This document shows positions 1,098 through 58,153 of a DNA stretch of 64,000 nucleotides, piece after piece. Both the position numbers and the translations under genes were made by a program. Source of the DNA: Rhina ancylostomus (taxonomy: Eukaryota); contig JARFYF010000046.1 in NCBI GenBank assembly GCA_030265395.1, positions 22,641,710 through 22,705,709 on the forward strand, read 5' to 3'. A model generated the notes under the pieces. It made no database searches, was not told the DNA's origin, and saw only the letters and a list, made by a program, of their open reading frames with translations. Each line of letters begins with the position of its first letter. The stretch's first letter is position 1.

Positions 1098-1209
1098 ATG
1101 GCACAAGATGGTATATACTATTACAGATTGCCTGCTGTTAGATTCATCCCTCTTATTAATATTATTCTGTTTGTGGATGGAATATCTACCATCATACTCT
1201 GGATTTTAG
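1098..1209 (+). CDS. Coding exon 1 (acceptor at 1067/1068, probable ATG 1098): [37 protein letters not shown](G)
   Basis: Pyrimidine tract ttcttgttccag before 1068; donor AG|gtaatg; phase 1 joins exon 2; hydrophobic helix. The frame is open back to the acceptor, so an upstream start cannot be excluded. Confidence 0.8.
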
Positions 1210-4200: not shown

Positions 4201-7200
4201 TCAGGTTCATTCTGGCCACTGTTTGTAAAGAGTTTGTACATTCTCCCCATGTCTGTGTGGGCTTCCTCTGGGTGCTATGATTTCCTCCCACTTTCCAAAG
4301 ATGTCCAGGTTAGGAAGTTGTGGGCATGCTATGTTGGTGCTGGAAACGTGGCGACATTTGTGGGCTGCCCCCAGAACACTTTACACGAAAGGTGCATTTC
4401 ACTGTGTTTGGATGTATATGTGACTAATAAAGATAACATAAATGCCTCAGCTGTGACCTTTTGGACTTGCATACTGGCTTTGCCATTGATGATGGAGGCA
4501 TTCATGCAACTGTTCTTCCCTAGTTGTTTAATTATCAACAGTTATTCATGATTGGATGGGGCAGGACAGAAGAGCTTTCAATCTGGTTGTTGTAATATAA
4601 CTGAACCTTAAACATTCTTTCAATAAGCTTTTAATTCAAATCACTACTGACGTGTAAAATAAGCTTTCAAAGCAGATGCAAATTTCCAGGGTTAATGTAT
4701 TATTCCTTATCATGATGAATGAAACACACAGAAAATGCTGGAAACATCTGTTGTGAGAAAGAGTTAATGTTTCAGATCAGTGACCTTTCTTCAGAGCTAG
4801 GAAATGCTACACTTGTGTGGATCAAAATCTTAATTAATTAATGTGACCATATGGATGCAATAAAGCAATACCTGTCAAAGTCATTAGTAGACCTAATTAC
4901 ATAAGATTTTGTTGTTTCTTGTTAATGTTGCCAGTTTCTGGGCCAGAGCTGGGTAATTGCTAAATTTGGAACTAATATTGACTTTAGTTATTTTAGTTTT
5001 TAATCATTCCCAGAATCAAAAGGTTGAAGTTCTGCTGACAGGTTTTAGAATGAAACTATACAGTGGTTATGTGATTAAAATTTTTGACCATCAGGAGTTA
5101 AGTTTGCATATTCAATATCATAACTCTTTAGTCTTGCCTTGATTTTACCTGAAGTGATATTTTATCTTATAACAGGGAAAAAATCTTCCTTCTGCTTATT
5201 GTTATCTATTGGGTTTAGATGTCATATGACAACTGCAGCTGAATTAGATGAAATAAGTTGCAAAGAAGTATTCTTCCGATGATCATTGATTACAATCTCG
5301 CATGACAATTTGCCATTTAGATATTATGGAGGGCAGTGTTGTCAGTGGCTATCTCATGGAACACAACATAAGATATAAGTTATTTATTAGTCACATGTAC
5401 ATCGAAACACACAGTGAAATGAGTCTTTTTGCATTACTGAGAATGTGCTGGGAGCAGCCTGCAAGTGTTGTCACTCTTCTGGTGCCAACATAGCATGCCC
5501 ACAGCTCCTCACTTGTACGTCTTTAGAATGTGGGAGGAAATCCACACGGACACGGGGAGAACATACAAACTCCATACGGACAGCGGTGGGAAATGAACCT
5601 GGGTTGCTAGTGCTGTAATAGTGTTATGTTAACCTCTACACTACTGTGTAAAAGGAAGTAAATGGGTGGGGTGAGTTTGGAATTGGGGGGAAAATTTTGA
5701 GCAGTAGTTTGACATGGTATTGTATTTTCAATAAAGTTGTATCTGGGGAGTGAAGTTCACTTGGTTCACCTTGAATATGTAAAATTATTGAACAAGAGAA
5801 TACTGTTCCACACCAGATGTTCATTCAAAATATCTGGGGTATTTAATAAAATCTTATTTGTGTTTGTTTAAAATGATAACAATTTTTATTAGGTATCAAT
5901 TAAAAAAATGTGGCCTTGATTAATTTTAGTTGTATTTAAATGCAGAAAGAGTACGTAAGAAATTTTAAAAGCTTACAATTGACTTCTTAAAGTGCACTTA
6001 TTTCCTTTTTTATGTAAAGAATAGTGAGATTTTTCTTAACTGGCAGTTCTGTGGCATTGTCTTCAATTCATTTTTCATTATGACTTTTTATTTAACCTGT
6101 TTACCTTTTTTTTTAAGGTGGTCGCTCTCACTATTTGGAAAACGATGTACTTAAGTGGTGCTTCTGGAAGTCAACTTTTGATCTTGCAGCATTTTGCACA
6201 ATGAAAACATGTATTCTTATTGTAATTTACTTGACAATGGAGTCTATTGCCCTGAAACAGATTGATGATCTTAACAATTCCAATCTTAAACGGAAAAGGG
6301 AGCTCCTGCACCTGATTAGCTTCACCATCTCAGGTCTCTGGGTTGCATACACAATGGCCAAAGGAATTACGGTCCTTGTAACACGGAGCTATAAAGAGGT
6401 AAATGCTGTGTAATTTGTTAAACTTGTATCGAGAGTTGTAGATTTGCTTTATTAACAGTAGGGCATACAGGGGTATATATTCTGGACAACTGGAAACAAG
6501 GATGAGTTGAATCTTCCTTGCTATGGAACCATCAGAGTTTGGTCATTTCCTGGGAGTAAATACTAGCTATGTACTGTACGTGTGAGACTTGAGTTAAATG
6601 TGCTGCTACATGTTTCGTACGTGTCTTTATACTTCCTTATGACTTGGAAGGTGGCTGTTTGGCCCATCGAGTCTGTGCTAGTTCTTAGAACAATCCCATT
6701 CCCATTCTTATTTCCTGGTAACCTATTTTCTCTTGGATGCCTATGAACTCCATTTTGATTCTCATACGACCCATTACATGAGGGTAATTGGCTATTTTAA
6801 ATTACCCATCGGCCAGCCTGACTGCGATATGGGAGGAATATGAAGTACATGGTGTGGTTGCAGAGAGAATGTGCAAATTCCATACACAAAGCACTGAAGT
6901 CGGATTGGAACCGGAATCTGAATTGTTGAAGCTGTGAGTCAGCAGCATTACTATCTGTAACGATGCTCTGTGGCTGGAATCCATGTGGAGTCCATTGGCA
7001 AAGCTTGGCCTCAGTAGGGTTCCCTGAGGGGTGTATTGGTGAATTATTTTGCCAATCCTGAACCGAGTTAGACCAGCAAAGGATTGAAAATCCCATGTAT
7101 TCCAGTGGAGAATCTTGGCCAGTGGATCAGGAAAAGTACGTTTTTAAAAATTTTCCCCTTGAAAGCACTTACTGAACATTAAGGATAACGTGATTTTAAT

Positions 7201-10200
7201 TAGCTCTACTCTTTATATGTTTAATTTTTAATTATTTACACCAATTTTAATAGTTTTTAAATGCCTCTGAATATTGGTGTTATCTCAAAAATTATTAAAA
7301 CCATGCATTACCACCGTATGGGTAAAAGCAAATTCATCCTTGCATAATTCACAAGGCACTACTTGAAATTTGAGATACGGAATGAGATTTGTTCTTAAAG
7401 AATTTATGTAGGAAAATAAAAGGAAATGAAATGTTGGGGTTGACTTATTTTTGATTGATACATCAATTTGATTGTTTTGCTTGGCTGAATCAGGTTCATA
7501 CCCCACTACTCTTTTGTCACACATCAATCTTACTCAGTATCCATTGGACTGCTTGTTAGTTTATTCCATAAGCCCTTGCATATGGAGTAAAATACCCCCC
7601 TCCTCCCCCCATCCAAAATTATTGTGCAAGTATTTTCTGCTCATTTTAATGTAACAATAATCTTTGCATCTGCAATTTCCCTGCAAGCTTAGAAACCAAA
7701 CTCAGAGCTGCTTTGATTTGAATAATACTTTTTAATTATTTAAGTTTGTATATGGGTAATTAGCTTTACATTTCATGTCAAAAAGAATTTTTCTTATACA
7801 GAAAGAGTTTGAAATTTTACTTAACATATTGTGTGATGACTACTTGCTCTCTTGCTTCATACTGTTCTTTCAAATAAGGAATCAGTCATTTGAGAGTCCA
7901 TAGTTTCTTTCAGCATTTAATCTTGTAAAATAGGTTCCACTGTATATTTGCTGAATTAAAAAGCATTGAATTCTTTGAAATCTAGAAAAGCTGCAGGTTA
8001 TCCAAATTTTGTTTATAGTCATGTAATAGTCACTAGGTAATGTTATCCCATATAAAATCATGTATTCTATTGTTCTTGTGAGGTTAAAAAAATCTTCATT
8101 GTTTTAAATGAGCCTTTGTTTCCCATTGACAGATGCATCTAACATTCAAGATTGTTTGTATTTCTACCTTGGTCTTCAGCCTGGTTGAGTTCCCCTTTTG
8201 TGTTTTTTGTAACAGGTAATGGACACTGAAATGGTTGAAAAAAAACCCTATGAAGTGCATCTTTTAATAAAAAAAAATTACTTATATTTTGTTTTGTTGC
8301 AGTGTAAATTTTGATCTAATTGTTTCTGAACTTTTTTATGTTCTGGGCATAAATTTAGCAGTAATACCTGGCTAAGTGACCAGATAAAACTGCAAAGCAG
8401 GATTGTCTGGGGTGAAAATTGATATTAAAGCATTGGTCCATCTGTGAAAATACTAATTTAAGTATGAAGCTGAACCTATTATTAAAATCTCATTCTTGCA
8501 TAAAGGACTGCATGCTAGTCTAGAATGCATGGAAAGTGAGCTACATTTTTATCTATAGCCAGATGTAGGGGATCTGTGGTAACTTTCAAGAAAAGCTGGG
8601 GAATCTCATGGTGTTTCTGCCTGCAAACTTCCCTTACTGACACTACCAAAAATATAATAGCTGGGCACTTTTCCTTGAAATTNNNNNNNNNNNNNNNNNN
8701 NNNNNNNNNNNNNNNNNNNNNNNNNNNNNNNNNNNNNNNNNNNNNNNNNNNNNNNNNNNNNNNNNNNNNNNNNNNNNNNNNNNNNNNNNNNNNNNNNNNN
8801 NNNNNNNNNNNNNNNNNNNNNNNNNNNNNNNNNNTAGGACAGTTTTAATATTTATCATTGGTTTTGAGTAGAGTGACAGGGTGGGTAGTTGGACAAAGCA
8901 GATGATTTTACAGTGCATATATCCAAATGTACAAAGCATGGTAAGCTACAGCACAGATCACCGCATAGCATTATCATATGGTGATAGCATAGTTCCTACC
9001 TCAGGATGGGATTAAGTGATGAATTTTCAAGGATTCAAGACATTCAAGCAAGGAAGAAGGCATGTAATATTACTGATTAAAGAATATTTGGGAAGTGCTC
9101 ATTTGGGGAGATAAATTTCCTAAATCTAGAGTTAAGAAATCGTTAAAGTCCCATTACTCTTTTGGGTATATTCAATAGGTCATTGACTTGTGGGAAAGAT
9201 GTAGAGAAGGACGTAACTTTGCATGGAATTCAAAGGTATAGGAACTGTAAGAGTTTTAACTATAAGAGTAAGACTTATGGATAGCATAGTGACACAGCTA
9301 GTAGAGATGCTGCCTCACCGTGCTAAAGACCCGGGTTTAATCCTGACCTTGGGTTCTGTCTGTGTGCAGAGTTACGCATTGACCTTGTGATTGTGTAGGT
9401 TTCCTTGGAGTGCTCTATTTTCCACCCACATGTCAAAGACGTGTGGATTGGTAGTTAAATTGGCCACTGTAGCCAGGGAATAAAAGACGGCCACTGTTTC
9501 ATGCATGTTATAAGTTAATAACCTGGGTTCTATTTCAGAATTTTCAGAACTTAATATGGTAAACGGTGAGAAGGATGGTGATGGACTTTGAGGATATAAA
9601 TAGGTTGGATGGAATGGGGAGATAAATGGCAGATGAAATTTAATGGAGAAATGTAACTGAAGCATTTTGGTAAGAAGAATGAGGAAGGGCAAAATAAATG
9701 TAGACTAAATGCAAGAAGCTTGTGTTAATTCTCAGTAGAGCACTAATTCAGCTGCTATTAGAATATTGTATCCAATTCTGGTGACTGTGCTAGGAAGGAT
9801 TTTTAGGAGCTACCAAAAGATTTAATAGAATGGTCTTGGGAATGATGGATTTGGGTTACTTAGACTTGAGATGTTAGTGTTATTCTTGGAGCAGGAAATA
9901 CTGAGAGATGATTTTAAAAGAGGTGCTCAAAAGCATGAGGAATCTAAACATTATGAACATTTGGATTTGGTTCATTTGGACGTTTGGTTCTTCCACCATT
10001 GTGATCTCAACAATCGTTGAAGAACCAAAAGCCTTAGGTGCAACATAAAAATAATTGGTAGAAGAGGTGCAGTGAGTAGTTTCATGCAGTGAGTCGTCAT
10101 GATTTGGAATTTACTGCCTGAAAGGATGCTGGGAAGAGAATCAGTCATTGTTTGCAAATGTGAATTGGATAGATATGTAAAGTAGCAAAATAGACGTAGG

Positions 10201-13200
10201 TGGGGAATGGAACTGATGATCTTGCAAAAAGATTGTATGCATGGATCAAATGGTCTCCTTGCATTCTGTAACAATTCTTTTGATTGTATTTACTCCATGT
10301 ATTCAGTACATAAGGGGTTTATGAATAACTGTTTAAGTTTCTAGTTGGGATAATTGGTTGTCATTGTCTTTAATTACTACTTTCTGTCTCAGGTTTCTGA
10401 GAAGGTTGCAGATTTTCCGTATTGTGCAAAGCATTGAAGAAGAAAGGGACCAAAAAAGTAAAGCTGATCTTAAGCGCCTCTTCTTATTGGCCAAAGATGT
10501 GAGTATTGTTTGTGTTCTCAATAACTGTTTTCAAATTAGATACAAGTTCACTTTGCATTCAACATGTAATCCTATTTTGCATGCCTTGAATAGTTCAGAA
10601 ATAATGCTATTTAATAATCGTGTTTTAAGGAACTGGTTCATTGTTTAAATGAAAGTTATATTTATTTTAATTAAACTAAATGGGTAAAACATTTTGCACA
10701 TATCCTGTGAATTTCAGAACTGCTATCTTCACCATGAAGTGTTCCTCAAGAACTGTGACTTTGTAAAAGAGACTATGGAAATTCTGCTTTATGGAGTGTG
10801 GACTACTTGCCTTAACTATAATAAATCTTTGTTTAGGCAGAGTTGATTGGGGGTTCTCCTCTTACTGGTAGAAGCCCCATTTAAAAACTCTTGGAAAACA
10901 GTTTATACATGTTTTTAGGTTTTCAATAGATCTTAAGTGATTAAGAACAAGTGAGAGAACCACTGTGGCAAATTGCCCCATGGATATTTAAAAGCCACCA
11001 AATTCTTTAGATCTGTGGCTCAGCTTTTGAATCTTCAAGTGCCAATCCCTCTTGCTTCATCTTATTTAATTATTGATATTCCAGTTATTGGAAGAGATGA
11101 ACTAGGTATGTTAATTTACTAGAAAGTTGGCAGTAAATGTTAGGCAATAAGTATAATTAACTGATGGAACAGATATAGAGCATTAAGTCTCTCGAACTTG
11201 ATCTTTAATATATTATTGATTGACTTTTAATGTCTAAAATTTAGGGAAAGTATTAATAGATTTTGCACCATTTTTGTATTTCTATAACTGGTGCATTTAA
11301 AGAACTGGATAAGCTTCAACTGATCTTCTCTGTGTCTTAAAATATTTATTCTCGATATTGTGTAAATTTAAATGCTTCCTTAGTGCAAAATTACTATTTG
11401 GAGATTGCCACGTGCATATTACATTTACAATTTAAGTAACCAGAAAATATTTTCTTCTACCACAGGAAGTTTGGATTTGTATTGGTGGAATGCTGGCACT
11501 TCTTGTCTCCTGTCTTTCACAGATAGTGGCTCCATTTTTCTTTGGCAAGGTTATTGATTCGGCTATGGAATCAATGGGTATGTGAATTATTTTCTTTTGT
11601 AGCAGTGAAATGCTTGATGTAGAAATGGTAATAAGTCGGAAATCAATGAAATTGAGGAAATTGGCAAAAATAATGGTTGAAGGCTAGTTTATGATTTAAA
11701 AATATCATCTATATTAGACTGTTCACACTTGAGACAAAAATGTCAATAGGCCAGGCCTTGCTGTGTCATGCTGGAAGTTCCAAACAGAACAACCAGTGTT
11801 TAGCCCTTTTATTGGGTAGCCAGCCCAGGATTTCTATGCATTTGCTATCAAATGCGGAACATATGGAGCCCAGCAGCAGAGTTCCACCTTGCTGTGGTCC
11901 CCAATATTATGCTGGGAAATTGCTTTTTGGATCTTGTGTCAGGTTTAATCTGGTGCAGGATCTGAGGCCCATTGATTTTAGTGGACATTGTGGGCCATGG
12001 ATTGGGAGGCAAATCAGAAGATGAGTTTTTAAAAATATATTTTGATTAATTTAGTGATTGAGGTATTTTAGTAAACTATTTTGTTAAAATATTTTCAATA
12101 AATGTTGTTCTGATTCAATTTTAGTAGCTTTTAACTGCCAAAGATATTTTTTAAAAACTACTAAAAATAATCAAATGCAGATTTTACAGTGAGGAAAGCT
12201 GCAGGTTTTGTCAGCTGTTAATGTTGAGTGGGGTTTTGGGGATAGGTTCCCCTCAGTACAACACTGCATACCCCACTGCTCTAAGACTATGCCACTGGAA
12301 TCCAGAATGGTAGGCTTTCTGCACCTGGACTAGGTAAATGCAGGTGTGGATGTACTGTATAGTAATTTTGTTGTAGGTGGTGATTGGGTGCAGGGAGCAT
12401 GACCTGATAAATCCTCCTGTTTCCAAACTGAAGTGTGTAATTCAATGCTATCCACCAGAGGGTGCATTGATGCTGTTTTCAGAAGAAAATAAGTAGCCAA
12501 ATTGTGTCTAATGTGTCTAGTATTGTGACACATGTATTTCATGGTCAAATTGTGGCTTTGATCCAAGACATGATGGAAGCTAGGCCTTTGTGCTAATAGT
12601 TCTAATGTACATAAAGGATAGTGATATATTAGTATGACCTTAGAAATGAAATATCCTAGTAATTCCACCTTTTTATATTAAAAAAAAAGTTGAGTTTTCT
12701 GCTTTTGAAGTTCAGTAGAATTTTGTTACTTAAGTCACTGAGCAGGAATTGTTCTTCATTTTTAGTTTGCGTTTCTTTAGTTAACACTAAATTAATTTAA
12801 AAAATAACTTGAAGGCTATTTTCTCACTGCCAGCCTCAATGTTACTTGGCCCTTACATTGCTCATAGAAAGGGATTAACTATTTGAACGCTGTGCTGTTG
12901 AAACAAGGTTATATATTATGTACACTGCAATTGTTTCCACTGCAGTCCAGATGGTTTCATTGACAGGAAGATGTTGACTATAATAAAATTTTGACTGTAA
13001 CAATCTTTTCTCTTCTGCCTTGAGACAGTTCAATCGGCAGTATCACCACACACAGGCTCCTAATCTATTTTAAAATGAAAGCACAGACTTGGAATTCTAA
13101 AATTGGATCTACTGATGCAAGCCCCTTTATTTCCCTCTGTGATGAGAAGACTCCAAGTCAAGAGCCAATTTTGATCCTTATTCTCAGAAGCACCATCACA

Positions 13201-49200: not shown

Positions 49201-52200
49201 AACCTGCCTGGCATTAGAGCTGCTATGGAATTAAGAGCACCAATCAAATATGCTCCTTGCCTAAACCATAGGGAAGCATTAAATACTGCGAAGACTTGCT
49301 CAGGGTAGCCTGCAGGCAATCTTGTTTCAGTGGTTACCAAATCCATAATCTATGCAAATATGTGTTCAAAATGATCCTGTGTTCCTGTATTGAATGAAGT
49401 GTTCAATTCCATTATGGTCACTAGCACACAAGTTCATCTAAACAGGCAGGGTAGGTTTAGATGTATGGTGTGGCAGTTCCACTGCAAAAGTTAAATTTGA
49501 AAAAATTGGCCTACAATTTACTATCAATGGTGGAACAGTAGAAGTGAATGAAAAAGTAGGTGGCAGCAGCTGACTCCTGCTTGCAGCCCCCCCCCCCCAG
49601 TCAGTAAAAATTCCACTGATGGAACTTGCAGAGAGCAGGCACTGTCAAGAGCTTCAGCTTCCACTGTAATCATTTATCTTGCATATGTTTTTTGGGTTTT
49701 GCTTAAATTCAGAAAATGACAGCAACGTTACTGCTTGCTGAGGATGTTTTGCAGGATTTCTTGGTGTTGACAGACATGAAACAGATTTGGGAAAACCTTT
49801 ATTTATTTTTTGGTACTTTTCCAGTTTTAATTGGAGAAGCTTTTATTCCAAATTCAGCGTATTTGTTTGAAGACTTATAACGTACTGTTTAGTAATGACT
49901 TCATTTCCTTTTCCCTGATGTTGAATTATGAGCTCCAATTCTTACCTTTTTCAAAATAATGAAATATTTCTGTCAGTGTGTAATGCCTAATAGTATCCCA
50001 CAAATTAAGTAAGATGTTTAATATGATAGTGAACTAAAAGAAATAAAGGGTAATTTTGTATTCAACAGATCACTTCCTTAATTATCCTCTCTTAATTTTA
50101 CATAGTTTATGACTCTTCTGTTTTTGAATTAGCTTTCATGGTCTATTCGATGAATGTTGCTATGGCATTTGGAATGTTGGCATCTCTTTATGGTGACTTC
50201 ATGCAAGCTGTTGGAGCCTCTATTCGTATCTTTGAGCTGCTGGACCGCAAGCCAAAAATCCCCTGTGCGGGTGGAAATCGCCTAGATTCTCTGGAAGGCA
50301 GTAAGTGGATTTTTAATTCTCTAATGAAGTTGGCTAAGCTGCTCTTTCATTATTTTGATAAGGAATTTTTTCATCTACAGATTAATCGATGTTTTAGACC
50401 AATTAAAGTAAAATAATCTGAGCAAAGCAGAAGTTAACCATAGATTGAAATTGTTCCTGTACCTTACCATCCTGCTCCATTGTCCAACTTCAAAATACAA
50501 TAACCAGAATTAGAAATAAAAATGAATTTATAGCTAGCAGTCTTTTAAAATAATCCAATTTTACAGTACCATTTGCAGGACAAATTTAATTTGACTTGCC
50601 TGCTCACTGTAAATTAATGCCCCTGCTCATCCTGTGTCTCTTTTTTGAATGAAAGAAGAAATATTTTGTTACATTTGAAAATTATGTTTATATAGACTAA
50701 GTTTACTGGATTTCGCAATTCCAATACCAAAAAATGATCTGTGGTGGAATGTTGAAAATGTGAATTCATGCAAAATGTCCACAATTAATTTTTAAAAATT
50801 GACTTTTTTTTAAAAAAAAGGACTAGAGTTCCAGAAGGTCAGTTTCACATATCCCACCAGACAAGCTTCCCAGGTTTTAAAGGTCAGTATTTTCTTTACA
50901 TTAAATTATCCCACACCTTCCTACTTTATTTAATGGGGGCTATTCAGAATTGGTCATCAATCCACTTTCAGGAATCAGATGAACACTCACTTTGAAGGAG
51001 GCTGCACACTTTATTTAAACTTAGTTTAAACTGGAGTTAGTTTAGGGGAATGAGGCAGAAATGAAGAAAATATAGTAAAATGTATAGGGTCCAACAATCA
51101 TAGGTTTAGAGTAGCTGCGGGGCAGGCTATGGACCACTCCAAGGTAAAAGCACAAGTGCAATTTCAGTGGATAAGATTAGTTCGGCCAAGGTAAATTGGA
51201 ATCAAAGATTGGCAGGGTAAAACTCTAATTGAATGATGGGAGGTCTTTAACATGGAGAGAATACATTTACAATTGAGATGTGTTTCCCTGAGGGGAAAAG
51301 GATAGGGAAATTAAAGCTGATTATAAAAAGTTCAGTTTGGGAGGGGGGGTGATGAAATGGGAAGCAAGAGAGGTGAAAGCAGAATAAGAGAAAAGACTAA
51401 TATCAAACATCACAGTGAATATTGAAATATTCTATAAGCATGTAAACATTAAAAGGTTGGAAGTCAAGTTGGTACTGATCAGAGCTGATGAAACAAATCC
51501 ATTCAAGGGAGTAGAGGTATTGAATGGATGTCATCTGGTCCCAATGTGAAGCATGAAAATCACAAAATGTAGGTGCTGGAAGTCTATCAGTGGTCCAAAT
51601 AGGATGCATTCTTGGTTGCTGAGGGAAATGGCAGACACCTGGCCATAATATTCAAAATATCCATTGGTACTAGGGTGCCTGAGGATTGGAGAATTGCTAA
51701 TTTTAACCCTTGTTCAGAAAATGTTGAAGAAATTTAACCCATCAACATTGATGGAAAAAACTTTAGAAATAATGATTAAGGACATAACTGGTAGATACAT
51801 GGACAAGTATGGATTAATTAGGAAAAGATGACTAACGGGCCAGATTGACTTCCTTCTTGATGACAAGCCTACGGAATAAAAGGAAAAGTAGCTGACTGGA
51901 TAGAAAATTGTTCGGGTGACTGGAAACGGTAATAGTGCAAGGTTGTTTCTGAACTGAAGGAAAATGTACAATGACTTGGACTTGAATGTACAGAGCACAA
52001 CCGCTAGATTTGCAAATGACACAAAACTTGGAAACACAAAGAACCATGAGGAGGATAGCAATACACTTAGAGTAGATGAAGGCAGACTGATGGGTTGATG
52101 CCTGGCAGATGAATGCCAAGAAAATACAAAATGTTAAATTTTTCTCAGGAAGCATTAGCAGAAATAGTATAAACTAGAAGGTATAATTGGAAAAAGGCTA

Positions 52201-55200
52201 CAAGATTGGATAGATCTGAGGAGGTAGATGTGTGTCGTATATCTGCATTCGCCTCTCCCCTGATGATTCCCATTCTCACGTCCTTATCAACGTCCAGCAC
52301 TGGTAGCCCTTTGTGTTCCTACTTATCTCCCTCCAGCAACTTTCTCCAATCTTCACACTCCCCTATCCCCTCTTTCCCACACACCCCAAGCCCACCTTGC
52401 TGCNNNNNNNNNNNNNNNNNNNNNNNNNNNNNNNNNNNNNNNNNNNNNNNNNNNNNNNNNNNNNNNNNNNNNNNNNNNNNNNNNNNNNNNNNNNNNNNNN
52501 NNNNNNNNNNNNNNNNNNNNNNNNNNNNNNNNNNNNNNNNNNNNNNNNNNNNNNNNNNNNNNNNNNNNNNNNNNNNNNNNNNNNNNNNNNNNNNNNNNNN
52601 NNNNNNNNNNNNNNNNNNNNNNNNNNNNNNNNNNNNNNNNNNNNNNNNNNNNNNNNNNNNNNNNNNNNNNNNNNNNNNNNNNNNNNNNNNNNNNNNNNNN
52701 NNNNNNNNNNNNNNNNNNNNNNNNNNNNNNNNNNNNNNNNNNNNNNNNNNNNNNNNNNNNNNNNNNNNNNNNNNNNNNNNNNNNNNNNNNNNNNNNNNNN
52801 NNNNNNNNNNNNNNNNNNNNNNNNNNNNNNNNNNNNNNNNNNNNNNNNNNNNNNNNNNNNNNNNNNNNNNNNNNNNNNNNNNNNNNNNNNNGGGTATTAG
52901 GAAAGATTTTACCCCCACCAACCCCCCCCCGGTTTTGGGGATCAAGAATTAGAGGACATAGGTTTAAGGTGGAAGGGGAAAGATTTAATAAGAACCTGAA
53001 GGGCAATTTTTATCCCCCTGAGGGTAGTCCATATATGGAATGAGCTGCCAGGAGAAGTGGTTGAGGGAGGTTCATAAACAGCATTTAAAAGGCACTTGAA
53101 CAGGTACATGGATAGGAAAGGTTTGGAGGGATAAGGGCCAAGTGCAGGCAAATGTGACTCGCTTACAGGAATCTTGGTCAACACGGGCCAGTTGGGCTGA
53201 AGAGCCTGTTTCTGTGCTGTGTGACTCTGATTCCATGTAAAGACCTCCAAGAGATGCAAAAGAGATTTAATGGAATGATTCCATGAATGAAAGAGTTTAG
53301 CAAGGTGAAAGGACTGGAGAAGCTGGTTTACTTCTCCATGGAACAGATGAGTTTGAGTGGATCCAATAGAAGGATTTAAAATCATGAGTTTTAACAGAGA
53401 GAAACCTTTCCCATTGATGGATGTAGAGGACAAAGGTACAATGACAAAAGATGGCAAAAGAACCAAAATTAATATGGGAGAACTTTTTAACACCATCATG
53501 TGGTTAGAATTAGGAATACACTGCCATAGATAGTCATCAAGGTAGATTCATTTGTGGCCCTCAAAAAGGAACTAGTAACTACCTGATAGGAAGGAATTTG
53601 CTAGAAATGGATAGAAAGTGGGAAAGCCAGGCTAGCTGGATTGCCTTGATGTGACATCAAATGTCCTCTTTTTCTGCTGTAACATTTGTGATTTCTGTTA
53701 AATTATAACATTGGGGCCATTCTGTTTCTTTTGCATGGGNNNNNNNNNNACCTGTCAATGTTGGTTGGCACATAGTGTATACAAATGCCACATATTCAGT
53801 TTTTTTTTGCTTTCATTAGAAGCAGTAAAATCTAGATGTGTATTTTTTTTGTTTCAATTTTACTGATGACAGCAAAAACTCTGAATATATATCTGTGTTT
53901 ATTGTCTGGCACTTCCATTGGTATTAATTATATAGTGTAGGACTGGAGCCAATCTTGTGCCAATCTCTGTACTATTAAATTATTTGATTGTTTCAAAGTT
54001 CTGTTGCCAGAAAGCTCCTGTTTAACTTCCCTCGTGCAAGGTAGATGCACTGCATAAGCAAAGGAAACTAGCTCCATTTCTATTACCACACTTCTTCCCA
54101 CCCCATCCAATAACACAGCATTTACAAGTAATTTAAGAATTTTCTAGCGAAAAAACCTGTTATGAAGAGTTTTAAAATAATATCTTGTATACTATTTGTG
54201 TATATACATTTGAGCTGCATGCCGGGTTCTGTTGAATTGGAAAGTTTTACAGTGTGAACATCTGACTAATGTATACTAATTTTTTTTCTTTTGTCACTTG
54301 TATTCTTACTGTCTCTGTGATCAATGGAAACATTCACTTTGTAGGAAATGACATTTACAATTGAACCGAGTAACATGGTCGCATTGGTTGGTCCATCGGG
54401 TGGAGGAAAATCAACAATAGTCAATTTGATAGAGAGATTCTATGACCCAGACTCTGGAAGGATATTACTTGGTATGATATTTATCTGCTTTTTCTCACCA
54501 AAAGAACACATTATTATTCAATTGTATGTATGTTTTCACCATAAATGTTTAAATTAACAGACTGAATCTAATTAGAATTTTTATGTTGAAATATCTTTAA
54601 CATTTTAAGAACAAACTGAAAGAACCAAATATTTTCCATGATTAAATACTCTTGCTAAGGATCTGCTAATAATGTAGAGAATAGTCATTGCTTATTACTA
54701 ACAGCAAAGTACTGCAGAGTTAATGTTTCTCTCTGCACCAGTGCTGGCTAATTACCTGAGCACTTCCAGCACTACTTGTTTTCTAAAATGTAGTTATACC
54801 ATTCGCTGTACCATGAAGACATTCCTTTCAAATATAGAGAATACTTAACTAAACAACAAAAAAAAATCATGGTCCTGAGTGTCTGCAACAATGAAATCAA
54901 CAATAGATGCTCTAGGTTGGACCATTCTGACCATTTAAGGAAAGAGATGTTAACCTTGGAAGAAGTGGATTCAGATTTGCTTGAAATGTATATGGATTCT
55001 GAGAGCTAAATTATGAGAAGAGGGTGCAGAAATGAGGATTTTCTACCCTGGAATCAAGAAGGTTGAAGGGTGATGTGCTGGAAATTCTCAATAGCTAGGA
55101 TAGATAGTGAGAAACCATTTTGGCTGATTAGTAAGTCCAGGAGTCATGCAGAGGGTAATAGAAATCTCAAATTCTATTCTGTGAATGCCAATAGATGTTA

Positions 55201-58153
55201 AGCTAAATGTTAATTTTAAATCTGATTGTTAACCAAGTGTAGGTAGGAATATTGCGTAAAACAAAGCAGGTGTATGGAGTGAAGCCACAATCTCGCTGAA
55301 TCCTGGGATATGTTTGAATGGCTAAAGGGTGTGATCCTGCTCTGATGTGCACTGAATCATTCCCTGTGATGTGGATGCACTATTTAATTTTGTGAGATCC
55401 AAGAAATTTAGTTCAATGCAAATTCATAATTACAGCATTGTTTAGCTTAAGCTGGTTCAGGTTTTATTATTTAAGATGTATTTCTTTCTGTAGTTTGTTT
55501 TGTATCATACTCTTTGTGGAAGAATCTTTTTCACTTGTCCTGTGACTAGCGTGATGCTACAGTATCCTCTTTCAAAACTGATTCATTTACCCTAAATGCA
55601 ATATGATGCATCACGAGACCAGCGAAATGAATTTAGCTGGATAATTGGGAGACTATAGTATCAGTATTTGACTGGGAGATGTGTAAAGTGTATTCAAACC
55701 ATCCTGTTCGTAAATATCGCATTGCTCTGTGTAGTAGCTATCTTTTTTTGTATGGTATATATCCAGAGATTATATTCTCTGATTTCTCTCTTCTATACAC
55801 TCGCATATGATCTCACTTAAATTTAAGGAACTAAGAGGTGTTGAGAATGTAAAACTAACATAACAATGACTATATTGAAAACTTGATGTTTGTGACTATT
55901 GATGTACTGTGCCCCAGAACCACTTCCGACCTTGCATATATAAACCCTATTTTTCTTAGTCGAACAACCCAACATTCAGAGTTACTGTGCTACTTATTTA
56001 ATTTTCACCAATTTCTTGTTTAGCCATGGTAGTTTTGTTACAAGCTAGAAAATATACAATTTTTCACATTCTGGTATGATTGGTAAAACAACCTGCAGAG
56101 ACGATTCTTTCCAGCTGCCTTTTATAGTAATGAAATTTCTATTTTTAAAAAAGACATTGCCATCCTTGTGCAAGAGCATCCACTTAAATGCCACTATTAG
56201 ATTTCAATGTATTATGGCAACTATTACGTTCTTGCATAAATTCGAACTTGTTAAGGATATACCCTGTACATGTGACTTTCAAATGTAGGGCGAAGAAAGA
56301 TGGTCTTCTACAATTTGGGTGCTTAATTTAAACATATTGTATCTCCTCCAGGTCACTACAGTGTGAGATGTTTGGAGGGTGTGATTATGCACTGATAACA
56401 TATGACCCTTGAGAGATTATGTAAACTATTGGCTTTGGAAGAAAGTCTGAGTCACTTTTTCAGCTTATTCTTTGTGATTTAACTCTGAACACATTCCTAC
56501 TTTCCTAACTTTGCAGGTATTTTCTATACTTGAAGTATGAAGTGAATTTTCTGTAAATATTATAGTAAAGCAGTCCTTTCTAAAGATTTTTATTTCTACA
56601 CTTACAATTATTTGCAAATCAAATAGGATCCTTGGAATTCAACTTTGCATTGGATCAAATGCTCATATCAGTGAAGGTCCCATGTGTATTTTGGCTTCAG
56701 CTAGGGACTTGGGATATACTTTTCATTTTTGATGTGTGTCTTTCAACAGCTAGTCTGTTTCCAATTGGATCTTCAGCACTGAGTGGAATATTATCCTCCA
56801 ATTTCATTTACCTATAGTGGGCTTCCCCTTGTTAGGCCAGTTAATCACTGTTGCACTGTAGATATAATTGTGTGTAGATTCTGTTTGATTCTGTTATACC
56901 ATTCACTATAATTTGTCCCTGGGGCTGGTGTAATCTGCTCAAAGTCACAAAATTTAAGCAGAAATTCTTTTCAGTCTAGATAGTGTTTCTGTAATCATTT
57001 GCACTAGTTAAAAGGGCCTAAGGCTAAAAGCTTGTCCTGCCCCGAAAACGGGCCATGCCCACAGGATGTATTCATCACCCATGGGAGATTCAGCTGATTG
57101 CACTCTTCTTCTTGAAAAAGCTTTTGAACATTGAGTTAATTGTTTTGGAGCCAAGACACTTCAGGAACATTCTAATGTTTTTCAGTTTACTAAGTGATTT
57201 CTGTACCCCAAAACGACCAGCAATGTTTCCATGTATCTTTAAAACTTCCTTGATTTTTAGAAATCAAGTCACTCGGGAATGGTAGATTGACATTGATTAA
57301 AAGTGTTTGTTCTTTGTGGCAAGCATGTTTATTCAATCTGCTTCAAGTTACCACTTCAGTATTTCAAGGAATATTTATAAAGTTTTAAAATTACTCTGCA
57401 CAATTGCACTGGTTCATAGCCAATTTTGTGTTTGCTGTTCTGCTAATGAGTTTCAGCAATAACTCAAAGAAACACTTTTCAACAAGCCCAATCTTGGATA
57501 CAATTTACTTGAGTAGAAACAGAAAATTTTGAAAGTATTCAGCAGATTAACAGCACCTTGTGGAGAAAGCAGACAAAGTGAATATCCAATGTTAATGATC
57601 TTTTGTTAGAACTGGAGTATTTACCCCTGTTTCAATTTTGTAATGAATTAGCAGATCTCAGTTGGACTGGGAGCCAGAGTGCTATAATTGGCCTCTTCTG
57701 TATAAAAAGAGTGTAACCTCAGCCAAATTTACTTTTTTCTGACTTCTGCCCTGTGAAGCAGTTTTGTTTTAAGCAGGTATTACCAGTGATAACACTATCG
57801 TGCTCAAAGAGGTTCAAACATGAAAAATTGAACATCTTAATCATGGTAATTGAAGGAAATTGCTATGAATCATCATTTTTGGTCATAAATACAGAGATTA
57901 AAAATAAAGCCACTGCTTGTCATGTGCATCTGGTCTGTTTGTGGCAATTTTGTTGATTTTTGGAGCTTAACTACATTGAATAATAAACTTCTGAATAATT
58001 TAATGTATTCTTTGATTAGGAAGATGTGATCTACAAAGCTTGGATCCTCAGTGGTTCCGGCAGAGGATTTCGATTGTTAGTCAGGAACCTACATTGTTTG
58101 CAACATCTATTAAAAAAAACATCACGTATGGAAGAGAGGCAAACATGGAAGAG
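1098..58153 (+). CDS. Multi-exon ABCB-family half ABC transporter (TMD0 + ABC membrane domain + N-terminal part of NBD); 3'-incomplete; apparent frameshift in exon 9
   Basis: 15 exons with AG/GT boundaries and matching phases except inside exon 9. Motifs: [35 protein letters not shown], Walker [19 protein letters not shown]-loop [13 protein letters not shown] signature and Walker B not found in the window. Confidence 0.93.
1385..1742 (-). mobile_element. CR1-clade LINE 3' fragment
   Basis: Minus ORF 1554-1787 contains [15 protein letters not shown]...[16 protein letters not shown]...QRVV, the typical CR1 ORF2 C-terminus, followed by a 3' UTR. Boundaries approximate. Confidence 0.88.
1760..2350 (-). 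mobile_element. Decayed 3' part of a second CR1/L2-group LINE family
   Basis: Similar to the copies at about 13520-13890 and 43105-43370 (ggctggcat.t..tgc.cat.c.t..tt.c.c pattern); family recognised from memory. Confidence 0.5.
2385..3385 (+). mobile_element. CR1 fragment interrupted by a ~680-bp insertion
   Basis: [15 protein letters not shown] at about 2385-2435; CR1-like sequence resumes near 3135 (gatgacaggtttgtcataagaggagag ... aatttcttcacacaga). Confidence 0.7.
2453..3130 (+). mobile_element. Candidate solo LTR nested in CR1
   Basis: Starts TGTTA, has a (GA)n tract and AATAAA at 3077, and retains more CpG than the flanks. 3' end and target-site duplication not resolved. Confidence 0.45.
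3660..4590 (-). mobile_element. Decayed CR1/L2-group LINE internal fragment, interrupted by a SINE at 4202-4435
   Basis: LINE-like sequence continues on both sides of the SINE; a similar segment occurs at about 48000-48580. Confidence 0.5.
4202..4435 (+). mobile_element. 5'-truncated V-SINE (HE1-related)
   Basis: V-domain-like gagtttgtacattctccccatgtctgtgtgggcttcctctgggtgct...tttcctcccactttccaaagatgt; reverse-complement similar to 5375-5648. Confidence 0.85.
5375..5648 (-). mobile_element. V-SINE, same family as 4202-4435
   Basis: Reverse complement shares the V-domain and tail; the tRNA-like head (ccaggttcatttccc) is on the right. Confidence 0.85.
6118..6398 (+). CDS. Coding exon 2 (TMD0): [29 protein letters not shown]...[18 protein letters not shown]
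   Basis: Poly-T-aag acceptor, GAG|gtaaat donor, 281 nt open, phase 1 to 0. Confidence 0.88.
6640..6970 (-). mobile_element. Decayed V-SINE with CR1-like tail
   Basis: tgggagga...gagaatgtgcaaattccatacaca...gaaccgg...gctgtgagtcagcagc is the reverse complement of a V-SINE head and core; the left end resembles a CR1 3' UTR. Confidence 0.7.
8133..8215 (+). CDS. Coding exon 3: [27 protein letters not shown](R)
   Basis: tttcccattgacag acceptor, CAG|gtaatg donor, 83 nt, phase 0 to 2 bridges exons 2 and 4; hydrophobic helix. Confidence 0.82.
9283..9471 (+). mobile_element. tRNA-derived V-SINE
   Basis: Head with B-box-like ccgggtttaatcc, then V-domain ggtttccttggagtgctctattttccacccacatgtcaaagacgtg. 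Confidence 0.8.
9565..10280 (+). mobile_element. Decayed CR1 LINE 3' portion
   Basis: tggcagatgaaatttaat (WQMKFN), cattttggtaagaagaat (HFGKKN), aatattgtatccaattctgg (YCIQFW) and a CR1-like 3' UTR. Confidence 0.75.
10393..10498 (+). CDS. Coding exon 4 (linker/elbow helix): [35 protein letters not shown]
   Basis: tttctgtctcag acceptor, GAT|gtgagt donor, phase 2 to 0; 'LKRLFLLAK' resembles the ABCB elbow helix. Confidence 0.9.
11466..11577 (+). CDS. Coding exon 5 (core TM1): [37 protein letters not shown](E)
   Basis: ttcttctaccacag acceptor, G|gtatgt donor, phase 0 to 1; PFFFGKVID is a typical ABCB motif. Not in the ORF track. Confidence 0.92.
13520..13890 (-). mobile_element. CR1/L2-group LINE 3' end
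   Basis: Minus translation [21 protein letters not shown] matches the LINE ORF2 C-terminal F..WN.LP motif; spans an N gap. Confidence 0.7.
14150..14330. repeat. Inverted-repeat (hairpin) element of the dispersed Penelope-associated short repeat family
   Basis: Left arm actcagcaggttagacaccctctgtggaga is the imperfect reverse complement of right arm tctccacagatgcagactgacctgttgaga. Single arms recur near 4730, 16970, 26550, 36130, 39925, 54700, 57520 and 60605. Confidence 0.7.
16600..16935 (+). mobile_element. Decayed CR1/L2-group LINE fragment
   Basis: ttgatcagaagct...ctcctgatccctcgtagtctctctcgccatataaaaggc resembles the post-RT region of this family (recalled). Confidence 0.5.
18079..18253 (+). 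CDS. Coding exon 6: [57 protein letters not shown](R)
   Basis: Strong poly-T cag acceptor, CAG|gtgggt donor, phase 1 to 2; QEIAFFD coupling-helix motif. Confidence 0.95.
19990..21560 (-). mobile_element. RTE-clade LINE remnant with internal deletions
   Basis: Minus translations [20 protein letters not shown] (RTE C-terminal), [12 protein letters not shown], and LLVDFSARV (APE GDFNARVG-like) near 21470-21510. Confidence 0.8.
23430..23790 (+). mobile_element. Deu-domain SINE (SacSINE1/AmnSINE1-like)
   Basis: tctctcagatgggtataaaatatcccatggc...gggccaatatattgtccctca matches the recalled Deu core; tail tgaaagttgctatctgaatgcaagt. Related tails at about 140-240 and 27790-27940. Confidence 0.7.
25164..25224 (+). 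CDS. Coding exon 7: [20 protein letters not shown]
   Basis: tctcttccaacag acceptor, ACG|gtaagt donor, phase 2 to 0. Confidence 0.95.
25762..25897 (+). CDS. Coding exon 8: [45 protein letters not shown](G)
   Basis: ttttactgtag acceptor, G|gtgagt donor, phase 0 to 1; two transmembrane helices. Confidence 0.95.
27307..27440 (+). CDS. Coding exon 9 (disrupted): (G)EFVKRL in the incoming frame, then [41 protein letters not shown](G) in a different frame
   Basis: atccag acceptor, AAG|gtattg donor. Length 134 nt does not fit flanking phases 1/1; the incoming frame stops at TGA 27345-27347. Confidence 0.88.
28864..28975 (+). repeat. 112-bp direct copy of 30874-30985 (3' half of exon 10 plus start of intron 10)
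   Basis: Ungapped alignment at offset 2010 with about 8 mismatches counted by eye. Confidence 0.95.
30855..30889 (+). CDS. Coding exon 10 (35 nt): [11 protein letters not shown]
   Basis: atatttttag acceptor, CAG|gtaaga donor, phase 1 to 0; fills the gap between exons 9 and 11. Confidence 0.85.
32620..33230 (-). mobile_element. RTE-clade LINE 3' remnant
   Basis: Minus translation [35 protein letters not shown] matches the RTE LLYGSETW region. Confidence 0.75.
33465..33845 (+). mobile_element. CR1 LINE fragment
   Basis: ttggtgaggccatacttggactattgtgtgcagttt ([12 protein letters not shown]) and a downstream GH/RNLF-like region. Confidence 0.8.
37578..37762 (-). mobile_element. CR1 LINE 3' end
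   Basis: acagcacaggaacaggtccttcagccc...tatccctccatt...ctatctaaaagcctcttaaa; similar to 1385-1550. Confidence 0.75.
39575..39770 (-). mobile_element. Decayed Deu-domain SINE
   Basis: ggataaata...ggagaactccct...aaatagtgc..tggg.c.tt is the reverse complement of the Deu core. Confidence 0.5.
40448..40650 (+). mobile_element. tRNA-related SINE head
   Basis: B-box GTTCGATCC at about 40509-40517 after an A-box-like tggcttgttgag; no cloverleaf. Confidence 0.5.
42230..44310. mobile_element. Nested LINE cluster: old CR1 (+, ~42230-43070), second LINE family (-, ~43105-44310), younger CR1 3' end (+, ~43385-43885) inserted in it
   Basis: tattgacattcagaagagttttggtaagatacc (DFQKAFDKVP-like), tggcaaataaaattt, and gagatgtacaagatcctaagggg...ttcagagggtag (YKILRG, QRV). 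Confidence 0.7.
45702..45792 (+). CDS. Coding exon 11: [30 protein letters not shown](S)
   Basis: ttgcag acceptor, T|gtaagt donor, phase 0 to 1; LWYG motif of TM5. Confidence 0.93.
50133..50300 (+). CDS. Coding exon 12: [55 protein letters not shown]
   Basis: tttttgaattag acceptor, A|gtaagt donor, phase 1 to 1; TM6 and RIFELLDR motif. Confidence 0.95.
50821..50882 (+). CDS. Coding exon 13 (NBD start, A-loop): [21 protein letters not shown]
   Basis: Matches the ABCB I/LEFxxVxFxYPxR..VLK pattern; AAG|gtcagt donor; atypical T8A8G acceptor; phase 1 to 0. Confidence 0.92.
50980..53695 (+). mobile_element. CR1 LINE cluster with a younger 3' end at ~52930-53232
   Basis: cctgaggattggagaattgctaat (PEDWRIAN), tttgcaaatgacacaaaact (FADDTKL-like), tggcagatgaat, agaggacataggtttaaggtg (RGHRFKV), tggaatgagctgcca (WNELP). 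Confidence 0.8.
54345..54471 (+). CDS. Coding exon 14 (Walker A): [42 protein letters not shown](G)
   Basis: cactttgtag acceptor, G|gtatga donor, phase 0 to 1; GxxGxGKST. Confidence 0.96.
54850..55350 (+). mobile_element. Decayed CR1 3' fragment
   Basis: ccatttaaggaaagagatg, aattatgagaagagg, aggttgaagggtgat.tg.tgga (RLKGD..E) and a CR1-like 3' UTR. Confidence 0.6.
58020..58153 (+). CDS. Coding exon 15 (Q-loop): [44 protein letters not shown]
   Basis: ttctttgattag acceptor, GAG|gtagga donor, phase 1 to 0; VSQEP motif. Confidence 0.95.

What the first reader, a model, noticed from the sequence alone, without database searches (positions are those of the whole stretch)
1098..58153. Unassigned ABCB half-transporter: TAPL-like TMD0 on an ABCB10/plant-type core
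Seen: the spliced protein has about 190 residues with four hydrophobic helices before a standard ABCB core. Recalled: the core ([19 protein letters not shown]...VPVV...[44 protein letters not shown]) resembles ABCB10, plant vacuolar ABCB27/ALS1 and invertebrate ABCB half-transporters more than vertebrate ABCB9 or TAP1/2. ABCB10 and ABCB8 instead carry mitochondrial presequences. TMD0 is split over four exons here, whereas vertebrate ABCB9 (as recalled) encodes it in one large exon. Inference: an ancient ABCB paralogue kept in cartilaginous fish and missing from the mammalian set, possibly an endolysosomal peptide transporter relevant to the origin of TAP/TAPL.
Basis: partly seen in the sequence, partly recalled or inferred. 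Interest (0 to 1): 0.8.

Follow-up and report, generated by a model that had tools for sequence, protein, structure and literature searches.

The report
Ancient ABCB transporter with MENTAL-like cap
This ray gene belongs to an ancient, little-studied ABC transporter lineage found from amoebae to sharks and lampreys and apparently lost in bony vertebrates; its N-terminal four-helix cap resembles both the lysosome-targeting cap of TAPL and the cholesterol-binding MENTAL domain of STARD3, so it likely works in lysosomes, although this assembly's copy carries a frameshift.

Summary
The gene is real: 19 exons, 15 in the window. It is the orthologue of lamprey 'ABCB10-like' (Ren 2015, unresolved there) and of RefSeq 'ABC transporter B family member 1-like'. 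Its core forms its own clade, from amoebozoans to cartilaginous fishes (91/88). Nesting of the vertebrate members with ABCB9/TAP (AU p=0.0001) or ABCB10 (p=0.027) is rejected. The genome holds separate ABCB8, ABCB9-like, ABCB10, TAP1 and TAP2 loci. No bony-vertebrate member was found.

(1) The N-terminal cap matches Pfam MENTAL (STARD3/STARD3NL) in 14 of 18 members at E<=1 (best 1e-6). A cap profile scores MENTAL and TAPL TMD0 about equally (26-35 bits; decoys <=12). This suggests one shared late-endosome/lysosome module, which my ten paper searches did not find described. (2) This copy lacks 55 nt in exon 9 and stops at codon 369; whether that is assembly error or recent loss is unresolved.

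TAPL's peptide-contact residues are not kept, so peptide transport is not supported. Location and substrate are inferred. The scan's earlier notes held nothing similar.

The parts
1098..1209 (+). Exon 1 coding part (aa 1-37): start codon and cap helix 1 with the conserved Asp27
   Evidence: an upstream acceptor at 1068 is only predicted
6118..6398 (+). Exon 2 (aa 38-131): short loop helix, cap helices 2-3, conserved Ser56/Asp59/Lys67/Lys119; the stretch most like MENTAL and TAPL TMD0
8133..8215 (+). Exon 3 (aa 132-159): cap helix 4
10393..10498 (+). Exon 4 (aa 159-194): end of the cap, linker, elbow helix
11466..11577 (+). Exon 5: core TM1
18079..18253 (+). Exon 6: core TM2 and first intracellular loop
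25164..25224 (+). Exon 7
25762..25897 (+). Exon 8: core TM3-TM4
27307..27440 (+). Exon 9, broken in this assembly: 134 nt, 55 nt short; frame shift at about 27316-27326
   Evidence: run X2 (a related organism) carries the missing coding letters as a loose end at 27316
30855..30889 (+). Exon 10 (35 nt)
45702..45792 (+). Exon 11: core TM5
50133..50300 (+). Exon 12: core TM6 and linker to the nucleotide-binding domain
50821..50882 (+). Exon 13: start of the nucleotide-binding domain
54345..54471 (+). Exon 14: Walker A
58020..58153 (+). Exon 15: Q-loop. Exons 16-19 (signature, Walker B, H-loop, stop) lie beyond the window, up to window-relative 109925

Best explanation
This is an ancient ABCB half-transporter lineage, separate from ABCB8, ABCB9/TAP and ABCB10, whose four-helix cap is likely homologous to both TAPL TMD0 and the STARD3 MENTAL domain and would target the protein to late endosomes or lysosomes, where a predicted homodimer likely uses ATP to move an amphipathic solute (a lipid or hydrophobic peptide) from the cytosolic side to the lumen. 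Shown: gene structure, architecture (cap + six-helix core + nucleotide-binding domain), intact ATPase motifs, the separate clade, and sequence similarity of the cap to both domains. Inferred: homology of the cap, lysosomal location, homodimer, direction of transport and substrate class. This assembly's copy has one frameshift, which I read as slightly more likely an assembly error than a very recent real loss.
For: Clade of 17 rows (amoebozoans, a filasterean, a choanoflagellate, animals, two unnamed rows) at 91/88; ABCB9-like+TAP1+TAP2 apart at 100/100; same shape under the C20 mixture quick tree. AU rejects vertebrate members with ABCB9/TAP (p=0.000134) or ABCB10 (p=0.027). MENTAL is hit by 14 of 18 caps at E<=1, best 9.7e-7, and no other family by more than 1 of 18; by 12 of 50 full-length members at E<=0.001, best 1.5e-8. 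One member matches MENTAL positions 12-123 of 176, which spans the four helices. Mouse ABCB9 is the top PDB hit of the cap profile (E=0.088), and a full-length profile aligns to it continuously from residue 7. TAPL Asp17, Asp49 and Arg57 align with columns that are Asp in 114, Asp/Glu in 125 and Lys/Arg in 120 of 126 members. The helix pattern matches the NMR pattern of TAPL TMD0, four helices plus a short loop helix after helix 1 (PMC6199259). TMD0 targets TAPL to lysosomes (PMC6199259, PMC5937356) and MENTAL anchors STARD3 in late endosomes/lysosomes and binds cholesterol (PMC5430228, PMC13044316). Walker A, Q-loop, signature, Walker B/D-loop and H-loop are intact. TAPL itself also flops phosphatidylserine (PMC9532399).
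Against: No localisation or transport data exist for any member in what I read. The shark and ray caps themselves do not hit MENTAL in Pfam (0 of 4 cartilaginous-fish queries); the link runs through invertebrate and protist members and profiles. The MENTAL similarity is strong only over helix 1, the loop helix and helix 2 (about 60 columns, hhalign probability 94%). MENTAL against the ABCB9-like TMD0 directly is weak (hhalign 29%; Pfam E=0.045). The tree rests on partial own-genome ABCB8 (349 columns), ABCB10 (465), TAP1 (193) and TAP2 (325), one divergent ABCB9, and an alignment made with a profile built mostly from this clade. Clade support (91/88) is below the starred level. No canonical ABCB9, nematode HAF-4/9, yeast Mdl1 or named Dictyostelium AbcB1 was in the tree. 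The window's copy is frameshifted.
Confidence: 0.55

Rival explanations
1. The lineage is the slow-evolving sister of the TAP family: TAPL and later TAP1/2 arose from a duplicate of it, and it is a lysosomal peptide transporter.
For: It shares the TMD0 with ABCB9. AU does not reject whole clade + TAP family (p=0.055) or holozoan members + TAP family (p=0.072). The TAP family is described only from nematodes and chordates (PMC5937356), while this clade reaches amoebozoans. The two genes lie on one contig, 16 Mb apart.
Against: The best tree puts ABCB10 and a plant protein closer (86/94). Animal members + TAP family is rejected (p=0.037). Mouse TAPL peptide contacts and gate are not kept: Gln298 maps to Val311, Phe449 to Leu/Met467, Glu456 to Ala/Gly474, and Tyr405 to position 418 (Gln/Glu/Ser most often; the alternative register 421 is Phe in 32 of 34). 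Exon structure differs: 19 coding exons against the 11 reported for TAP/TAPL.
Confidence: 0.25
2. The cap's likeness to MENTAL is convergence among four-helix membrane bundles; only the TAPL link, or neither, is homology.
For: The match is short and strongest in the first half; direct MENTAL-TAPL comparison is weak. Intron positions in the first half differ between this gene and the STARD3 genes.
Against: One family of 24,736 recurs in 14 of 18 caps, always in the same register, above Pfam's cut-off in 5 of 17 full-length proteins and 2 of 6 clade members. Membrane-protein decoys stay at or below 11.7 bits.
Confidence: 0.12
3. It is a mitochondrial ABCB10 duplicate, as the lamprey and rotifer name 'ABCB10-like' implies.
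For: Human ABCB10 is the best-scoring half-transporter in the PDB (489 bits against 477 for ABCB9; 730 against 690 with a profile). Clade + ABCB10 as sisters is not rejected (p=0.137).
Against: Lamprey and this genome each hold a separate ABCB10. Vertebrate members + ABCB10 is rejected (p=0.027). The N-terminus is a four-helix membrane bundle starting at residue 16, not a presequence.
Confidence: 0.05
4. (Independent of the others) In this species the gene is a very recent pseudogene or a null allele, made by a deletion between two short direct repeats.
For: 55 nt are missing and the stop falls at codon 369. The letters at the break read correctly in both frames for about 10 nt, as expected of microhomology. 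No other copy of the exon or of the missing piece was found in the assembly.
Against: It is the only lesion in 19 exons. The protein has only 2 private changes, both conservative, within the 1-7 seen in six of the seven other rays and skates (16 in Narcine). All 13 orthologues aligned and run X2 keep the segment; one Chiloscyllium model skips the whole exon in frame. A false join at a short repeat gives the same picture.
Confidence: 0.4

Closest known systems
Lamprey 'ABCB10-like' (Ren et al. 2015, PMC4458048; GenBank KM232926)
   Same: Same gene. The paper's Japanese lamprey sequence matches P0020 by eye, and P0020 is sister to the cartilaginous-fish proteins at 98/98.
   Different: The paper named it by best BLAST hit, found it 'not well resolved' in its tree, and lists it as TMD-NBD. 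In the passages I read it notes no N-terminal domain, range or loss.
TAPL / ABCB9 (lysosomal peptide transporter and phosphatidylserine floppase)
   Same: Half-transporter with a four-helix TMD0 plus short loop helix; aligned Asp17/Asp49/Arg57 positions kept.
   Different: Separate branch; peptide-contact residues not kept; 19 exons with the cap over four of them; core 36% identical to the ray ABCB9-like protein.
STARD3 / STARD3NL MENTAL domain (Pfam PF10457)
   Same: Four-helix membrane domain with matching sequence pattern over helices 1-2, in one member over all four.
   Different: Here it is fused to an ABC core instead of a START domain or nothing. I did not test for an FFAT motif or for cholesterol binding.
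ABCB10 (mitochondrial)
   Same: Closest solved half-transporter core by score; 48% identity over 452 shared columns.
   Different: ABCB10 has its own locus; its solved constructs match only from the core on; its mitochondrial presequence is recalled, not tested.
Plant ABCB27/ALS1-type vacuolar half-transporter (P0068; the name is my recall, the source calls it hypothetical) and Dictyostelium AbcB1 (source of the RefSeq name)
   Same: P0068 halves are 44-47% identical over the core; sisterhood with the clade is not rejected (p=0.34). Amoebozoan members fall inside the clade. I recall that NCBI CDD has an 'AtABCB27-like' model that may cover this group; not tested.
   Different: The plant protein has only about 70 residues before the core and no MENTAL hit among the 25 families shown. 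Named Dictyostelium AbcB1 was not retrieved.

Membership tests
ABCB half-transporter | One six-helix ABC_membrane domain followed by one nucleotide-binding domain | tested here: met
   PF00664 at 202-467 and PF00005 at 536-684 in the skate orthologue; 50 of 50 members
ABCB half-transporter | Intact Walker A, Q-loop, signature, Walker B/D-loop, H-loop | tested here: met
ABCB half-transporter (this copy) | Uninterrupted reading frame | tested here: not met
   55 nt missing in exon 9, stop at codon 369 as assembled; error or real loss unresolved
ABCB9 / TAP family | Nests with ABCB9, TAP1, TAP2 in a tree of the core | tested here: not met
   (AU p=0.000134 for vertebrate members); only one, divergent ABCB9 in the tree
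ABCB9 / TAP family | Four-helix TMD0 with loop helix | tested here: met
   TAP1/TAP2 TMD0 were not matched by the profile
ABCB9 / TAP family | Peptide-contact residues of TAPL (Gln298, Tyr405, Glu456) | tested here: not met
   Tyr405 mapped by offset, two registers considered
ABCB9 / TAP family | Peptide transport, lysosomal location, LAMP binding | not testable with these tools
   needs cells and proteoliposomes
ABCB10 | Orthology by tree; no separate ABCB10 in the same genome | tested here: not met
   separate locus at C63:91.43-91.45 Mb; AU p=0.027
ABCB10 / ABCB8 | N-terminal mitochondrial presequence | tested here: not met
   membrane helices from residue 16; 3 Arg and 2 acidic residues in the first 40; no presequence predictor was run
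MENTAL domain (PF10457) | Profile score above the curated cut-off | tested here: inconclusive
   met in 5 of 17 full-length members and 2 of 6; not met in the cartilaginous-fish proteins or the window's exon 2
MENTAL domain (PF10457) | Four transmembrane helices | tested here: met
   predicted model against PMC5430228
MENTAL domain (PF10457) | Same three-dimensional fold | tested here: inconclusive
   fold searches listed only generic four-helix bundles; no model-to-model comparison was possible
MENTAL domain (PF10457) | Cholesterol binding, late-endosome anchoring, FFAT motif | not tested
   binding and anchoring need experiments; FFAT not searched
Plant ABCB27/ALS1 orthologous group | Forms one clade with the plant protein | tested here: inconclusive
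   not in the best tree, not rejected (p=0.34)

The most novel reading that the evidence does not exclude
TAPL's TMD0 and the MENTAL domain of STARD3/STARD3NL are one ancient late-endosome/lysosome module. This overlooked ABCB lineage, present from amoebae to sharks, is the living link that carries the ancestral form on an ABC exporter, probably a lysosomal sterol or lipid mover. The TAP family took its cap from this lineage, and bony vertebrates lost the parent gene.
Probability: 0.3. Interest if true: 0.8.

Novelty: new variant of a known kind. Interest (0 to 1): 0.58.

Why it matters
TAPL's TMD0 targets it to lysosomes without a conventional sorting motif, and a 2018 review calls the mechanism unknown (PMC5937356). 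MENTAL has been treated as peculiar to STARD3 and STARD3NL (PMC5430228). If the two are homologous, each field gains direct tests: cholesterol binding and homo-oligomers for TMD0, LAMP binding and buried charged residues for MENTAL, and domain swaps between them. The lineage also adds an ABCB gene to the early vertebrate set, kept in lampreys and cartilaginous fishes and apparently lost in bony vertebrates. It is mislabelled 'ABCB10-like' in invertebrate transporter inventories and should be included in trees on the origin of TAP.

Tried and rejected
No RNA holder listed. Run X1, identical to the window where it lies, has no cover at 27313-27505, and it has other holes too, so it cannot settle the deletion. 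Fold searches of the cap model gave only generic helical bundles: best Z 13.1 to a designed protein, no Foldseek match at E<=0.001. No solved MENTAL or TMD0 was listed, which does not exclude them. ESM Atlas searches gave only sub-0.9 leads to ABCC-type TMD0_ABC clusters and held no models. The search of 50% representatives was swamped by full-length P-glycoproteins; it yielded five extra clade members. A search for canonical ABCB9 proteins returned only 2 Pristis isoforms among 401 candidates. The careful C20 tree did not finish in two runs; I used its quick tree and an LG+G4 tree. In some searches the label 'plant_Pgp' for P0068 is wrong: it is two fused half-transporters. My first joining of the second MENTAL domain had a frame slip and scored 1.2 bits; corrected, where the decoy P0054 was dropped because it is a clade member. 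Synteny failed: 87 of 1326 flanking open frames were scanned, and the one interesting hit (RIG-I C-terminal domain, E=0.0033) was not confirmed. The paper on charged residues in TAPL TMD0 (Graab et al. 2019, recalled) is not held, so their trafficking role is from memory. Earlier scan notes: nothing relevant. I did not run complex prediction, since a homodimer would pass by likeness to solved ABCB structures.

Full report
Observation. A search with exon 12 returned 19 proteins among 24 candidates, led by ray, shark and chimaera proteins named 'ABC transporter B family member 1-like' or uncharacterized. Mapping them back gave 15 exons in the window and four beyond it, all with AG/GT ends. The protein is 97% identical to the Pristis orthologue over 584 residues and 91-94% to other rays and skates, so the window comes from a ray-like fish. 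A model of this region in the skate orthologue has helices at 16-37, 58-87, 92-125 and 134-164 plus a short one at 41-49 (pLDDT 89.9 for the domain alone).

Exon 9 is 134 nt where the orthologues need 189. As assembled, the coding sequence is 2351 nt, the first stop is codon 369, and the frame after the break is open to the natural end. About 10 letters at the break read correctly in both frames, the mark of a join between short repeats. A related organism's contigs (X2) carry the missing coding letters. The assembly holds no second copy of the exon or of the missing piece. The protein has 2 private changes, both conservative, against 1-7 in six of seven other rays and skates, so there is no sign of long decay. 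An assembly error (about 60%) and a very recent loss or null allele (about 40%) both fit.

What it is. With the skate core as query, 2242 proteins passed E<=1e-20 among 7998 scored candidates and 120 were listed. The 12 best rows are 11 cartilaginous-fish proteins and one lamprey protein (537 bits). Below them come amphioxus, echinoderms, hemichordates, molluscs, brachiopod, bryozoan, priapulid, scorpion, rotifers, cnidarians, Trichoplax, sponges and a choanoflagellate. No listed row is named from a bony vertebrate, although an orthologue there should score above the lamprey's. This is good but not final evidence of loss: many lower rows are unnamed, and a fast-evolving relic could be missed. 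A filasterean and two amoebozoans were named. The lamprey member is the 'ABCB10-like' of Ren et al. 2015 (PMC4458048; abstract, passages and supplement hits seen). That paper named it by BLAST, could not place it, and reported expression in muscle, kidney and gill (up to 24 RPM). A rotifer member carries the same name.

The window's genome has separate loci for ABCB8 (C118), ABCB10 (C63), TAP1 and TAP2 (C68) and an ABCB9-like gene (C46, 16 Mb away). The ABCB8, ABCB10 and TAP labels rest on my recall of their motifs and on their places in the tree; the ABCB9-like label rests. I built a tree of 30 rows and 561 core columns, chosen from 55 aligned rows by dropping redundant clade members and P-glycoprotein halves. 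It gives a clade of 17 rows at 91/88, the TAP family apart at 100/100, and ABCB10 plus a plant protein as weak sisters (86/94). AU tests reject vertebrate members with the TAP family (p=0.000134) or with ABCB10 (0.027), and animal members with the TAP family (0.037). They do not reject the whole clade as sister to the TAP family (0.055), to the plant protein (0.34) or to ABCB10 (0.137), nor holozoan members with the TAP family (0.072). The three tests were chosen after seeing the tree. The paralogue rows are partial, the only ABCB9 is divergent, and the aligning profile leans to this clade. So: a distinct, old lineage, with its sister unresolved.

The cap. Precomputed annotations showed Pfam MENTAL on 6 of the 120 rows, so the match is visible in public annotation. 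Rescans confirmed it. MENTAL is hit by 14 of 18 isolated caps at E<=1, and no other family by more than one; by 12 of 50 full-length members at E<=0.001; and one protist member matches positions 12-123 of 176 at E=1.5e-8. The cartilaginous-fish proteins themselves do not hit it. In the other direction, a profile of 126 caps scores this genome's two STARD3-family MENTAL domains at 26.4 and 35.2 bits and the ABCB9-like TMD0 at 33.9. The best of 816 transporter windows scores 11.7, the best of 900 shuffles 7.4, and reversed sequences at most 2.5. TAPL Asp17, Ser46, Asp49 and Arg57 fall on columns conserved in 114, 123, 125 (Asp/Glu) and 120 (Lys/Arg) of 126 members; TAPL Asp45 does not. I recall that Asp17 and Arg57 matter for TAPL trafficking, but could not obtain that paper. 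The NMR secondary structure of TAPL TMD0, four helices and a short luminal helix after the first (PMC6199259, passages), matches the model. Against: the MENTAL match is strong only over the first two helices, and MENTAL against TAPL directly is weak. The new clade is what links them.

How it likely works. The ATPase motifs are intact, so a homodimer would be active (inferred). Both characterised relatives of the cap sit in late endosomes or lysosomes: TMD0 is needed and sufficient to target TAPL there (PMC6199259, PMC5937356, passages), and MENTAL anchors STARD3 there and binds cholesterol (PMC5430228, PMC13044316, passages). I therefore infer an endolysosomal exporter. The substrate is open. 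The residues that hold a peptide in mouse TAPL (PMC9532399, passages) map to non-equivalent residues, and core helix 6 is largely apolar, with invariant Phe483 and Met484 in 34 of 34 members. As TAPL also flops phosphatidylserine, I favour a lipid or hydrophobic peptide over TAP-like peptide recognition.

Novelty. The gene was listed before, so it is not undiscovered. I found no paper that defines the lineage or links TMD0 with MENTAL. The searches were: MENTAL domain + TMD0, 0 papers; STARD3NL/ABCB9/TAPL/MENTAL, 2 listings, unrelated by title and abstract; MENTAL + ABC transporter, 1 review listing; ABCB10-like, 1 paper. PMC9408558 and PMC3743828 (passages) add nothing on it. Subscription journals, domain databases such as CDD and bioRxiv supplements were not searchable and may hold such a note. 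Verdict: a new variant of a known kind, interest 0.58.

Noticed in passing
G000:C46:38.89-38.92 Mb (L057-L060): The only ABCB9-type gene found in this genome is strongly diverged: long branch, odd composition, altered NBD motifs. Its first exon found only Pristis isoforms among 401 candidates, yet matches mouse ABCB9 1-133 at 107 bits. No canonical ABCB9 was found.
   Followed up: partly
P0278 (Pristis) and P0003 (Mobula isoform X4): These RefSeq models start at the core and lack the whole cap; a real short isoform or an annotation gap.
   Followed up: no
G000:C74:7592624-7592758 (L030): An isolated fragment matching the ABCB10 nucleotide-binding domain across an exon junction, perhaps a processed pseudogene.
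   Followed up: no
G000:C12:28760532-28760678 (L018): A lone P-glycoprotein-like NBD exon; no other ABCB exon scored in the 70 kb fetched around it.
   Followed up: partly
G000:C68:12.80-12.87 Mb: TAP1 (+) and TAP2 (-) lie tail to tail, with an open frame that looks like an MHC class I exon near 12.801 Mb (my recall of the motif).
   Followed up: no
P0068 and P0125: Database 'full transporters' that look like two neighbouring half-transporter genes fused by annotation (a plant ABCB27-type pair and a TAP2-type pair).
   Followed up: partly
window-relative 118700-119600 (L006:4700-5600): A GC-rich stretch about 9 kb past the gene's stop, possibly the promoter of the next gene; no Pfam hit.
   Followed up: no
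P0022/P0099 and P0102/P0110: Two molluscs (Haliotis rufescens, Mizuhopecten) list two members each on one contig, suggesting local duplications.
   Followed up: no
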